From the human T2T-CHM13v2.0 reference genome, Homo sapiens, in the NCBI RefSeq assembly GCF_009914755.1, contig NC_060928.1: a stretch of DNA of 64,000 bases. The stretch is one strand, 5' to 3'. The translations under genes were made by a program, and so were the position numbers. The notes under the pieces were generated by a model. The model ran no database searches and had not been told where the DNA came from. It was given only the letters and a program-made list of their open reading frames with translations. Below, piece after piece: positions 61,407 through 63,456 of this stretch. How positions within the stretch are numbered: position 1 is the first letter of the stretch; each line of letters starts with the position of its first letter.

Positions 61407-61846
<440 letters not shown>

Positions 61847-62129
61847 CTGGCAGGGAGAGAAACAGCAGCAGAGTCATCAATGCGTGTAAACTGCCTGCAC
61901 CTGGAGCTGCCCAGAGAGGACGCTGCAAAGCTTTAGAGCAAGGCCTCCAGCCTAATCCGGATGGGTGGGTGGAAACCAAGCACACAACCTGCTCCAGAGC
62001 CACAGGGCAGGCGCTGGCATCAAAGCCATGACTCACAGAAGGTCCCTTCTCAGGAGGGCCAGACTCAGAACACAGACCCTTTATGGGTTCGGGAAATACT
62101 AGATATTGTAGAGAAAGCTTGAGATCTTG

Positions 62130-62345
62130 GAAACTAACATTTATTGAGCACTTACTGTCTTCCAGGCACTGTTCTCCATGCTTCATAGATAGAAACAAGG
62201 TCCTCCTTGTTTAAGGCATTATTCCATTTTGCAGATGAGGAAACTGACACAGAGAGGATTCTGGTGACTTGCCCAAGGTCACAGGTGATTAACCATGTGG
62301 CCAAGAGTCAAACCCACTAGTTTGCCTTCAAAGTCCAAGATCTAA
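62130..62345 (-). mobile_element. MIR (target of the HML-2 insertion)
   Basis: CATTTATTGAGCACTTAC..CCATTTTGCAGATGAGGAAACTGA..GACTTGCCCAAGGTCACA. Confidence 0.8.
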
Positions 62346-62383
62346 CTATGACATCAAGACACTGTCCCTTCAGTGCCCTCCCT
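62288..62383 (+). repeat. Left copy of 96-bp direct repeat flanking the HML-2 LTR
   Basis: ATTAACCATGTGGCC...CAGTGCCCTCCCT; 95/96 identical to 63361-63456. Confidence 0.98.
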
Positions 62384-62385
62384 AA

Positions 62386-63360
62386 TGTGGGGAAAAGAAA
62401 GAGAGATCAGATTGTTACTGTGTCTGTGTAGAAAGAAGTAGACATAGGAGACTCCATTTTGTTCTGTACTAAGAGAAATTCTTCACCTTGAGATGCTGTT
62501 AATCTATAACCTTACCCCCAACCCCGTGCTCTCTGAAACATGTGCTGTGTCCACTCACGGTTAAATGGATTAAGGGCTGTGCAAGATGTGCTTTGTTAAA
62601 CAGATGCTTGAAGGCAGCATGCTCGTTAAGAGTCATCACCACTCCCTAATCTCAACTACCCAGGGACACAAACATTGCGGAAGGCCGGAAGGCCGCAGGG
62701 ACCTCTGCCTAGGAAAGCCAGGTATTGTCCAAGGTTTCTCCCCATGTGATAGTCTGAAATATGGCCTCGTGGGAAGGGAAAGACCTGACTGTCCCCCAGC
62801 CCGACACCCGTAAAGGGTCTGTGCTGAGGAGCATTAGTATAAGAGGAAGGCATGCCTCTTGCAGTTGAGACAAGAGGAAGGCATCTGTCTCCTGCCCGTC
62901 CCTGGGCAATGGAATGTCTCGGTATAAAACCCGATTGTATGTTCCATCTACTGAGATAGGGGAAAACCGCCTTAGGGCTGGAGGTGGGACATGCGGGCAA
63001 CAATGCTGCTCTGTAAGGCATTGAGATGTTTATGGGTATGCATATCTAAAGCACAGCACTTAATTCTTTACCTTGTCTATGATGCAGAAACCTTTGTTCA
63101 CGTGTTTATCTGCTGACCTTCTCTCCACTATTATCCTGTGACCCTGCCACATCCCCCTCTCTGAGAAACACCCAAGAATGATCAATAAATACTAAGGGAA
63201 CTCAGAGGCCAGGATGGATCCTCCGTACGCTGAACGCTGGTCCCCTGGGCCCCCTTATTTCTTTCTCTATACTTTGTCTCTGTGTCTTTTTCTTTTCCAA
63301 GTCTCTCGTTCCACCTAACGAGAAACACCCACAGGTGTGGAGGGGCAACCCACCCCTTCA
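62386..63360 (+). mobile_element. HERV-K(HML-2) solo LTR, LTR5_Hs-like, 975 bp
   Basis: Begins TGTGGGGAAAAGAAAGAGAGATCAGATTGTTACTG, ends GGGGCAACCCACCCCTTCA; TATAAAA 62923-62929, AATAAA 63184-63189; no PBS or internal sequence follows. Confidence 0.97.
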
Positions 63361-63456
63361 ATTAACCATGCGGCCAAGAGTCAAACCCACTAGTTTGCCT
63401 TCAAAGTCCAAGATCTAACTATGACATCAAGACACTGTCCCTTCAGTGCCCTCCCT
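63361..63456 (+). repeat. Right copy of 96-bp direct repeat flanking the HML-2 LTR
   Basis: Starts directly after the terminal CA; single difference C63371 vs T62298. Confidence 0.98.

What the first reader, a model, noticed from the sequence alone, without database searches (positions are those of the whole stretch)
62288..63456. HERV-K(HML-2) solo LTR with a 96-bp target-site duplication
Seen: the LTR (62386-63360) sits between two 96-bp direct repeats (62288-62383, 63361-63456) that differ at one base, a CpG>TpG change. Known: betaretroviral integrase makes 5-6-bp duplications; long duplications have been reported for only a few HML-2 loci. Inference: a non-concerted integration in which integrase joined one end and host repair or strand-displacement synthesis resolved the other. 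Whether this locus is already catalogued cannot be determined here.
Basis: partly seen in the sequence, partly recalled or inferred. Interest (0 to 1): 0.8.

Follow-up and report, generated by a model that had tools for sequence, protein, structure and literature searches.

The report
Known HERV-K LTR with 96-bp duplication
A retroviral solo LTR just upstream of the PROM1 coding start is flanked by a 96-base duplication of host DNA instead of the usual 5-6 bases; the locus is real but already published, and its one small added point is a two-base viral-end remnant that hints how the odd insertion happened.

Summary
A 975-bp HML-2 LTR (62386-63360, + strand) lies between two 96-nt direct repeats (62288-62383, 63361-63456). 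They are 95/96 identical and differ at one CpG/TpG site. The 96-mer occurs nowhere else in the assembly.

The locus is already in print. Kahyo et al. 2017 (PMC5488345), Table 2 and Table S4, list hg19 chr4:16078281-16079255, 4p15.32, a solo LTR with a 96-bp duplication. They give the same 96-mer, note two extra nucleotides, and credit Mamedov et al. 2004.

In my control set, 32 of 34 related solo LTRs carry a 5-6-bp duplication with at most one mismatch. None has a two-copy long repeat.

One detail I did not find in the papers I could read: the two extra bases, AA (62384-62385), match the dinucleotide before U3 in 19 of 20 proviral or SVA polypurine-tract contexts. The U5 end is flush at CA.

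This fits one-ended integrase joining plus host joining of an unprocessed U3 end, as shown experimentally for ASLV and HIV (PMC5041404). Ape empty sites could not be examined.

Verdict: real, already known, modest interest.

The parts
62288..62383 (+). Left copy of the 96-nt host duplication. It carries TpG at 62298-62299.
   Evidence: It is one of only two copies in the genome. The same 96-mer is listed in Kahyo 2017 Table S4.
62384..62385 (+). Two-base spacer AA between the left repeat and U3. It is read here as the retained terminal dinucleotide of the U3 end of linear viral DNA.
   Evidence: Seen in the sequence. The bases are absent after the right copy, which is followed by CTCAGG. They match ...GGGGGAAA|TGTGGGG in 19 of 20 polypurine-tract contexts. 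Kahyo 2017 Table 2, footnote d, notes two nucleotides here. The viral origin is an inference.
62386..63360 (+). HERV-K(HML-2) solo LTR, 975 bp, TG...CA termini, antisense to PROM1.
   Evidence: BLAST against 38 unique near-full-length LTR loci gave 90.6-96.1% identity. The tree (39 rows, this LTR included) gave an end branch of 0.018. There is no other HML-2 piece in the 64-kb window.
62679..62694 (+). Private 8-bp tandem duplication (GGAAGGCC twice) inside the LTR. It accounts for most of the extra length.
   Evidence: the 16-mer is present here and in 0 of 61 other fetched loci.
63184..63189 (+). AATAAA polyadenylation-signal motif of the LTR.
   Evidence: motif position only; function not tested.
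63361..63456 (+). Right copy of the 96-nt host duplication. It carries CpG at 63371-63372 and abuts the LTR's terminal CA with no extra base.
62131..62287 (+). Old interspersed-repeat sequence directly upstream of the left copy. I recall it as MIR-like; no repeat library was available to confirm that.
   Evidence: 27 short matches at 79-97% identity on many chromosomes cover query 2-61 and 85-158. None extends into the 96-mer.
62156..62388 (-). Alternative PROM1 5' exon (hub annotation). It starts 3 nt inside the LTR and contains the AA and the left repeat copy. A GTAAGT donor follows at 62155-62150 on the minus strand.
   Evidence: The exon coordinates come from the hub's gene table. The donor was read. 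Longer variants, 62156-64027 and 62156-64031, run antisense through the whole LTR and both repeat copies.

Best explanation
This is a true but aberrant retroviral integration, not a later rearrangement.

Proposed sequence of events:
1. The U5 end of a linear HML-2 DNA was 3'-processed. Integrase joined it to the top strand between 62287 and 62288 (pre-insertion numbering), giving the flush ...CCCCTTCA|ATTAACC junction.
2. The U3 end was not joined by integrase. It kept its terminal AA/TT dinucleotide.
3. Host enzymes attached the U3 end 96 bp further along the target, by end-joining after strand-displacement or gap synthesis.
4. Fill-in of the 96-nt stagger then duplicated the host segment.
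5. LTR-LTR recombination later reduced the provirus to a solo LTR. That step leaves both outer junctions unchanged.

Shown here: the anatomy of both junctions, the absence of a 5-6-bp duplication, the two-copy status of the 96-mer, and the identity of AA with the proviral pre-U3 dinucleotide.

Inferred: the order of events, host-mediated joining, and the former presence of a full provirus.
For: 1. No normal duplication. The left flank ends CCCTAA and the right flank starts ATTAAC. Among 34 unique related solo LTRs, 27 have an exact 5-6-bp duplication (19 of 6 bp, 8 of 5 bp). Five more have one mismatch, and L025 has two CpG-type changes.

2. Both LTR ends coincide with the repeat-unit boundaries, with offsets of 2 and 0 nt.

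3. AA equals the last two bases before U3 in 19 of 20 polypurine-tract contexts: 16 of 17 SVA SINE-R copies and 3 of 3 proviral 3' LTRs. The 5' LTR/primer-binding-site junction reads CA|TC|TGG in 3 of 3. The linear DNA is therefore expected to read AA-TG...CA-TC. The locus keeps AA but not TC.

4. The two copies are 95/96 identical, and the single difference is at a CpG. The upstream host repeat matches its paralogues at only 79-97% over short stretches. The duplication is therefore young.

5. There is experimental precedent. When only one viral end is inserted by integrase, host enzymes insert the other. The commonest outcome is a host duplication far longer than 5 bp (PMC5041404; passages read).

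6. A pre-existing tandem repeat looks different. L052 sits in a 41-bp minisatellite of about 3 + 15 copies that are 87-89% alike, and it still has a normal 5-bp duplication.
Against: - AA would match by chance about 1 time in 16 if the two bases were random filler. One of the 34 control LTRs also has AA before TG, purely as host sequence (L050).
- The Hughes-lab model usually, though not always, finds short homology at the aberrant junction. I see none here: the host sequence after the 96-mer is CTCAGG, which would pair neither with a ...CATT-3' end nor with a ...CA-3' end.
- Kahyo's footnote marks this as the only one of the eight long-duplication loci with extra bases. The others may need a different mechanism, which weakens generalisation.
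- The empty site in other apes was not seen here. Kahyo lists the human pre-integration allele as 'n.d.'.
Confidence: 0.68

Rival explanations
1. Integrase joined both ends, but at target positions 96 bp apart. This could be two half-site events, or an intasome bridging distant points of bent or nucleosomal DNA. The AA would then be the viral 5' overhang that escaped flap trimming during repair of the long gap.
For: The polarity of the duplication matches a widened 5' stagger (reasoned). By Kahyo's footnote, the seven other long-duplication HML-2 loci have no extra bases, which suggests integrase can produce long staggers. The AA still comes from the viral end in this reading.
Against: Integrase strand transfer joins CA-3'OH directly to host DNA. 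Fixing AA/TT in the duplex would then need ligation of an unpaired 2-nt flap followed by segregation or repair in its favour. The 96-mer has no hairpin or cruciform that could bring the two sites together. Its DNA fold z-score is -0.83, and there are no inverted-repeat arms within it.
Confidence: 0.13
2. Pseudo-duplication (Kahyo 2017, Fig. S5). Two proviruses integrated independently at different points of two duplicated host segments. Recombination between their LTRs then left one LTR between homologous flanks.
For: Kahyo et al. raise this model for all loci in their Table 2. Among the 34 controls, L040 has no recognisable duplication. It is therefore a candidate for an LTR-LTR exchange between loci, though this was not tested.
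Against: The model needs two same-orientation HML-2 insertions within equivalent positions 96 bp apart. It also needs the homology between the segments to end exactly at both LTR edges. Only two copies of the 96-mer exist genome-wide, and there is no other HML-2 fragment in the 64-kb window. Under this model the left flank would end in half of a normal duplication. The host would then have to read ...CCCTAA there, but the other copy reads ...CCCT|CTCAGG.
Confidence: 0.07
3. A 96-bp tandem duplication already existed in the host, and the LTR happened to insert at the junction of the two units.
For: LTRs do land in tandem repeats. L052 sits in a 41-bp minisatellite.
Against: Such an insertion should still carry its own 5-6-bp duplication, as L052 does. 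This locus has none. Hitting the unit boundary within 2 bp has a chance of roughly 5 in 192. Combined with the absence of a normal duplication, which 33 of 34 controls show in some form, the coincidence is of the order of 1 in 1000 (my estimate).
Confidence: 0.05
4. Integrase-independent capture of linear viral DNA at a chromosome break by end-joining.
For: The retained AA at U3 is what an untrimmed end would give.
Against: The U5 end stops exactly at the conserved CA and lacks the expected TC. That is the signature of integrase processing and joining. End-joining capture does not by itself create a 96-bp duplication.
Confidence: 0.05

Closest known systems
The same locus as published: 4p15.32 solo LTR, hg19 chr4:16078281-16079255 (Kahyo et al. 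2017, BMC Genomics 18:487, Table 2 and Table S4, which credit Mamedov, Lebedev and Sverdlov 2004, J Gen Virol 85:1485).
   Same: The LTR length is the same (975 bp) and the duplication is 96 bp. The 96-mer is identical, with the variable base at position 11. Kahyo counts '3 mismatches/gaps', which equals 1 substitution plus the 2-nt spacer noted in footnote d.
   Different: Nothing structural differs. The window is the T2T-CHM13 copy. In the sections and supplements I read, Kahyo et al. do not interpret the two extra bases. Mamedov 2004 could not be read, so I cannot say whether it does.
Other HML-2 loci with long flanking duplications (Kahyo 2017 Table 2): 7p21.2 (250 bp), 6p25.2 (111 bp), 16q23.1 (61 bp), 4q32.1 (206 bp), 21q21.1 (450 bp), and two short ones (18 and 13 bp).
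   Same: In each, an LTR5_Hs element is directly abutted by direct repeats far longer than 5-6 bp. At 7p21.2 and 6p25.2, sequenced empty alleles carry one copy of the repeat.
   Different: Only 4p15.32 carries two extra bases at a junction (Table 2, footnote d). Its human empty allele is 'n.d.'. I could not inspect the other loci in this assembly.
Experimentally induced aberrant integrations of ASLV and HIV-1 (Hughes laboratory: Oh et al. 2006 and 2008; Varadarajan et al. 2013; PMC5041404, 2016).
   Same: One junction is normal and one is aberrant. The host duplication is much longer than the canonical length. The viral end at the aberrant junction is not always truncated.
   Different: Those events arose in cultured cells, with mutated viral ends, integrase inhibitors or mutant integrases. 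This is a germline, fixed or near-fixed event of a betaretrovirus. No short homology is visible at its aberrant junction.
Canonical HML-2 integration with a 5-6-bp target-site duplication.
   Same: The LTR has the same termini (TG...CA) and belongs to the same family.
   Different: Among the 34 controls, 27 have an exact 5-6-bp duplication and 5 more have one mismatch. This locus has none, and has 96 bp instead.

Membership tests
HERV-K(HML-2) LTR5 solo LTR | Full-length similarity to other HML-2 LTRs, with TG...CA termini. | tested here: met
   Identity is 90.6-96.1% over positions 1-975 to the full-length copies in G000. The termini are TGTGGGG...CCCCTTCA.
HERV-K(HML-2) LTR5 solo LTR | No proviral internal sequence adjacent (solo state). 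| tested here: met
   Host repeat copies abut both ends. There is no polypurine tract upstream and no primer-binding site downstream (compare). The LTR has no other match in the 64-kb window.
HERV-K(HML-2) LTR5 solo LTR | Subfamily LTR5_Hs by RepeatMasker or Dfam. | not testable with these tools
   No repeat library was available. Kahyo 2017 lists the locus under LTR5_Hs.
Canonical retroviral integration product | A 5-6-bp direct duplication immediately flanking the LTR. | tested here: not met
   CCCTAA versus ATTAAC gives 5 mismatches of 6.
HML-2 long target-site-duplication loci (Mamedov 2004; Kahyo 2017) | A direct repeat longer than 10 bp abutting both LTR ends. | tested here: met
   96 nt, 95/96 identical, with offsets of 2 and 0 nt from the LTR ends.
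HML-2 long target-site-duplication loci (Mamedov 2004; Kahyo 2017) | The repeat is single-copy at the LTR-free (pre-integration) allele or orthologue. | not testable with these tools
   No primate genomes or human pangenome were available. Kahyo lists 'n.d.' for humans. Mamedov 2004 was not readable.
One-ended integrase / host-mediated aberrant integration | One normal junction (processed CA joined to host). | tested here: met
   The U5 junction reads ...CCCCTTCA|ATTAACC. The TC seen between U5 and the primer-binding site in 3 of 3 5' LTRs is absent.
One-ended integrase / host-mediated aberrant integration | The other junction is aberrant (extra or missing viral bases). | tested here: met
   AA is retained before TG, matching 19 of 20 proviral contexts. 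A chance match has probability of about 1/16.
One-ended integrase / host-mediated aberrant integration | A large duplication or deletion of flanking host DNA. | tested here: met
   96-bp duplication.
One-ended integrase / host-mediated aberrant integration | Short homology between the aberrant viral end and the appended host sequence (usual, not obligatory). | tested here: not met
   The host sequence beyond the 96-mer is CTCAGG. It does not pair with the ...ACATT-3' or ...ACA-3' viral end. The source paper says 'usually, although not always'.

The most novel reading that the evidence does not exclude
The AA at 62384-62385 is a molecular fossil of the unprocessed U3 terminus of the infecting HML-2 DNA. 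It would identify which end integrase joined (U5) and which the host joined (U3). That would make 4p15.32 a natural germline example of the one-ended integration pathway so far shown only in cell culture for ASLV and HIV. It would also suggest that a junction-by-junction survey of endogenous retroviruses could measure how often integrase fails at one end in nature.
Probability: 0.5. Interest if true: 0.4.

Novelty: already known. Interest (0 to 1): 0.25.

Why it matters
Long target duplications show that retroviral integration is not always the concerted two-end reaction of textbooks. Each one records a host-genome rearrangement made at the moment of infection.

This locus lies antisense about 540 bp upstream of the exon that holds the PROM1 (CD133) start codon. 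It lies inside alternative 5' exons and inside RefSeq-annotated enhancer intervals. Both the LTR and the duplicated 96 bp therefore belong to a regulatory region of a widely used stem-cell marker gene.

As a discovery it adds little, because the locus and its 96-bp duplication are published. The only increment is the reading of the two spacer bases as a retained viral end.

Tried and rejected
- Mamedov 2004 (first report, with primate comparisons) is not held under its DOI or its PubMed id. Papers citing it gave only reference-list entries.
- Three literature searches linking PROM1/CD133 to the LTR gave nothing useful. 'PROM1' + 'LTR5_Hs' found 1 paper, which was irrelevant when read. 'PROM1' + 'HERV-K' + 'solo LTR' found 0. 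'CD133' + 'alternative promoters' + 'exon 1A' + 'exon 1B' found 0.
- A search for print mention of an unprocessed HERV-K end with long duplications found 0 papers ('HERV-K', 'target site duplication', 'unprocessed', 'integrase', 'one-ended', at least 4 of 5 terms). This does not cover Mamedov 2004 or other subscription papers.
- I tried to fetch 200 kb around the expected position of the 7p21.2 locus to compare junctions.
- Cruciform or hairpin juxtaposition of the two target sites is rejected. The DNA fold z-score is -0.83 and there are no inverted repeats within the 96-mer.
- Dating the insertion from the LTR's end branch (0.018) is rejected as unreliable. For the one provirus with both LTRs sampled (L011/L063), the branch the two LTRs share, which predates integration, is 0.017. 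Their private branches are only 0.001 and 0.006. Most of an end branch therefore reflects source-lineage variation.
- The 96-mer could not be shown to be part of the upstream interspersed repeat. None of the 27 paralogous hits extends into it. That it is the tail of a MIR rests on my recall only.

Full report
**Observation.**
The window holds a 975-bp LTR at 62386-63360 (TGTGGGG...CCCCTTCA). It lies between two 96-nt direct repeats at 62288-62383 and 63361-63456. The copies differ at one position, T at 62298 and C at 63371. The right copy has a CpG there and the left a TpG.

Two bases, AA (62384-62385), separate the left copy from the LTR. The right copy abuts the LTR's terminal CA directly. 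A search of the whole 3.1-Gb assembly with the 96-mer found these two copies and nothing else (2 candidates, 2 scored).

**Already in print.**
Kahyo et al. 2017 (PMC5488345) list this locus in Table 2. I read the Results and Discussion sections and three supplements. The entry is chr4:16078281-16079255 (hg19), 4p15.32, a solo LTR with 96-bp duplicated flanks and 3 mismatches/gaps. The pre-integration allele is 'n.d.'. A footnote says two nucleotides lie between the duplicated sequence and the LTR. The entry is credited to Mamedov et al. 2004.

Their Table S4 prints the same 96-mer with N at position 11. The interval is 975 bp, as here. So hg19 and T2T-CHM13 agree on the structure and on the single difference, which argues against an assembly artefact. 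Mamedov 2004 is not held. I recall that it compared such loci with primate empty sites. Of that, I can cite only Kahyo's statement that it did so for 7p21.2.

**Is the LTR ordinary?**
Two searches of the assembly, with the first and last 120 nt of the LTR, scored 40 of 1655 and 40 of 1121 first-look candidates. Each returned 30 loci.

- After removing duplicates, 38 loci hold a near-full-length LTR, including this one.
- Three of them are proviral 3' LTRs.
- The other 34 are solo LTRs and served as controls.
- Identity to the window LTR is 90.6-96.1%.

A maximum-likelihood tree of 39 LTRs is star-like. The window LTR's end branch is 0.018, against a median of 0.023.

The LTR carries a private 8-bp tandem duplication at 62679-62694, found in 0 of 61 other loci, and an AATAAA at 63184. 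No other HML-2 fragment lies in the 64-kb window.

**Controls for the duplication (34 solo LTRs).**

| Flanking duplication | Loci |
|---|---|
| Exact 6 bp | 19 |
| Exact 5 bp | 8 |
| 5-6 bp with one mismatch | 5 |
| Two CpG-type changes (L025: GCACGG / GCGCAG) | 1 |
| None recognisable (L040) | 1 |

L036 was read by eye, because the script misplaced its start.

These loci are the best-scoring relatives, not a random sample. None has a long two-copy flank repeat. The script flagged one locus, L052. It lies in a 41-bp minisatellite with about 3 copies upstream and 15 downstream, 87-89% alike, and it still has a normal 5-bp duplication. That is what insertion into a pre-existing tandem repeat looks like, and the PROM1 locus does not look like it.

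**The two extra bases.**
The 5' search also returned 17 partial copies in which the LTR start is preceded by the polypurine tract. They match LTR positions 1-~300 and 700-810. I recognise this pattern as SVA SINE-R by recall. In these 17 copies plus the three proviral 3' LTRs, the context reads ...GGGGGAAA|TGTGGGG. The last two bases before U3 are AA in 19 of 20; L014 has GA.

I fetched three proviral 5' LTRs. Each reads ...CCCCTTCA|TC|TGGTGCCCAACGTGG at the primer-binding site. By general retrovirology, linear viral DNA carries two extra base pairs beyond the conserved TG/CA at each end, and integrase removes them from the 3' strands. That principle is established knowledge and was not tested here. 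The incoming DNA should therefore have read AA-TG...CA-TC.

The locus has host-AA-TG on the left and CA-host on the right. The U5 end thus looks processed and integrase-joined, and the U3 end looks unprocessed. The AA is not host sequence, because the right repeat copy is followed by CTCAGG. A chance match of two filler bases has probability of about 1/16, so this is suggestive and not proof.

**Mechanism.**
The polarity of the duplication is that of a widened 5' stagger. The top strand was opened at the left edge of the 96-mer, where the U5 CA is joined. The bottom strand was opened at its right edge, where U3 is joined.

The Hughes laboratory showed for ASLV and HIV-1 that when integrase can insert only one end, host enzymes insert the other. 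The normal end keeps a normal junction. [quoted passage not shown] The locus fits this pattern except in one respect. I see no short homology at the aberrant junction, which that model finds 'usually, although not always'. Blunt end-joining of the AA/TT end would account for that.

**Rivals.**
- Kahyo's pseudo-duplication model is two integrations in duplicated segments followed by LTR-LTR recombination. It needs two same-orientation insertions at equivalent positions 96 bp apart. It also needs homology that ends exactly at both LTR edges. It does not explain the AA either, because the host would then have to read ...CCCTAA where the other copy reads ...CCCTCT.
- A pre-existing tandem duplication hit exactly at its junction would still be expected to carry a 5-6-bp duplication.
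- Two-ended integrase joining with a 96-bp stagger remains possible. It needs an unpaired AA flap to be ligated and fixed.
- No hairpin could bring the two target sites together. The fold z-score is -0.83 and the 96-mer has no internal inverted repeats.
- Integrase-independent capture does not explain the exact CA end or the duplication.

**Age.**
One difference in 96 bp, at a hypermutable CpG, is compatible with anything from very recent to more than 10 million years. This is my Poisson estimate using a recalled neutral rate of about 1.2e-9 per site per year.

The LTR end branch cannot date the insertion. For the one provirus with both LTRs sampled (L011/L063), the branch the two LTRs share is 0.017. 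Their private branches are 0.001 and 0.006. Whether the insertion is human-specific is therefore open here.

**Context.**
The LTR is antisense to PROM1. It lies about 540 bp upstream of the exon at 61415-61846, which contains the start of the coding sequence. According to the hub table it lies inside the alternative 5' exons 62156-64027 and 62156-64031, and within two RefSeq 'enhancer' intervals. A shorter alternative exon, 62156-62388, starts 3 nt inside the LTR and ends at a GTAAGT donor.

The sequence upstream of the left repeat copy matches many short paralogues at 79-97%. It is therefore an old interspersed repeat, MIR-like by recall.

**Not done.**
- Ape orthologues and human population data were unavailable.
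- The other long-duplication loci could not be fetched.
- Mamedov 2004 and any other subscription paper may already discuss the two bases.

**Verdict.**
The retained-AA reading is a small mechanistic addition that can be tested.

Noticed in passing
L052 (G000:C7:2501334-2504451, minus strand): A related solo LTR sits inside a 41-bp minisatellite, with about 3 units upstream and about 15 downstream that are 87-89% alike. It has a normal 5-bp duplication, CTTTC. A naive flank-repeat scan scores it as a 46-bp 'duplication'.
   Followed up: yes
window 62156-62388 and 62150-62155, minus strand: An annotated alternative PROM1 5' exon begins 3 nt inside the antisense LTR and contains the AA and the left 96-mer. 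It ends at a consensus GTAAGT donor inside the old interspersed repeat. Longer variants read antisense through the whole LTR. Whether the LTR drives or only hosts this start was not examined.
   Followed up: partly
L007, L010, L013-L023, L026, L027, L031, L032: Seventeen hits match only LTR positions 1-~336 and 700-810 and are preceded by the polypurine tract. I recognise this as the SINE-R part of SVA elements (recalled). They preserve the proviral polypurine-tract/U3 junction and so served as extra witnesses for the AA.
   Followed up: partly
L040 (G000:C24:6831527-6834646): This near-full-length LTR has no recognisable flanking duplication (TTTAGGG versus GAAGCAT) and the lowest identity but one (91.5%). 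It is a candidate for an LTR-LTR exchange between loci, or for decayed flanks.
   Followed up: no
L025 (G000:C2:201620944-201624064): The flanking hexamers GCACGG and GCGCAG differ at two positions, both explicable as CpG decay from GCGCGG. This shows how CpG-rich duplications can be missed by exact-match scans.
   Followed up: no
all 38 near-full-length LTR loci; L063-L065: Every sampled relative ends in TTCA, with three variants at or near the end (L005/L056, L006, L030). The three 5' LTRs are followed by TC and a primer-binding site reading TGGTGCCC. The retrieved set is thus one sequence type of the family, chosen by similarity to the query.
   Followed up: no
window 62071-62088 and 62806-62823: An 18-nt inverted repeat, 94% complementary, links host sequence upstream of the LTR to a site inside the LTR. 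It is probably a chance match.
   Followed up: no
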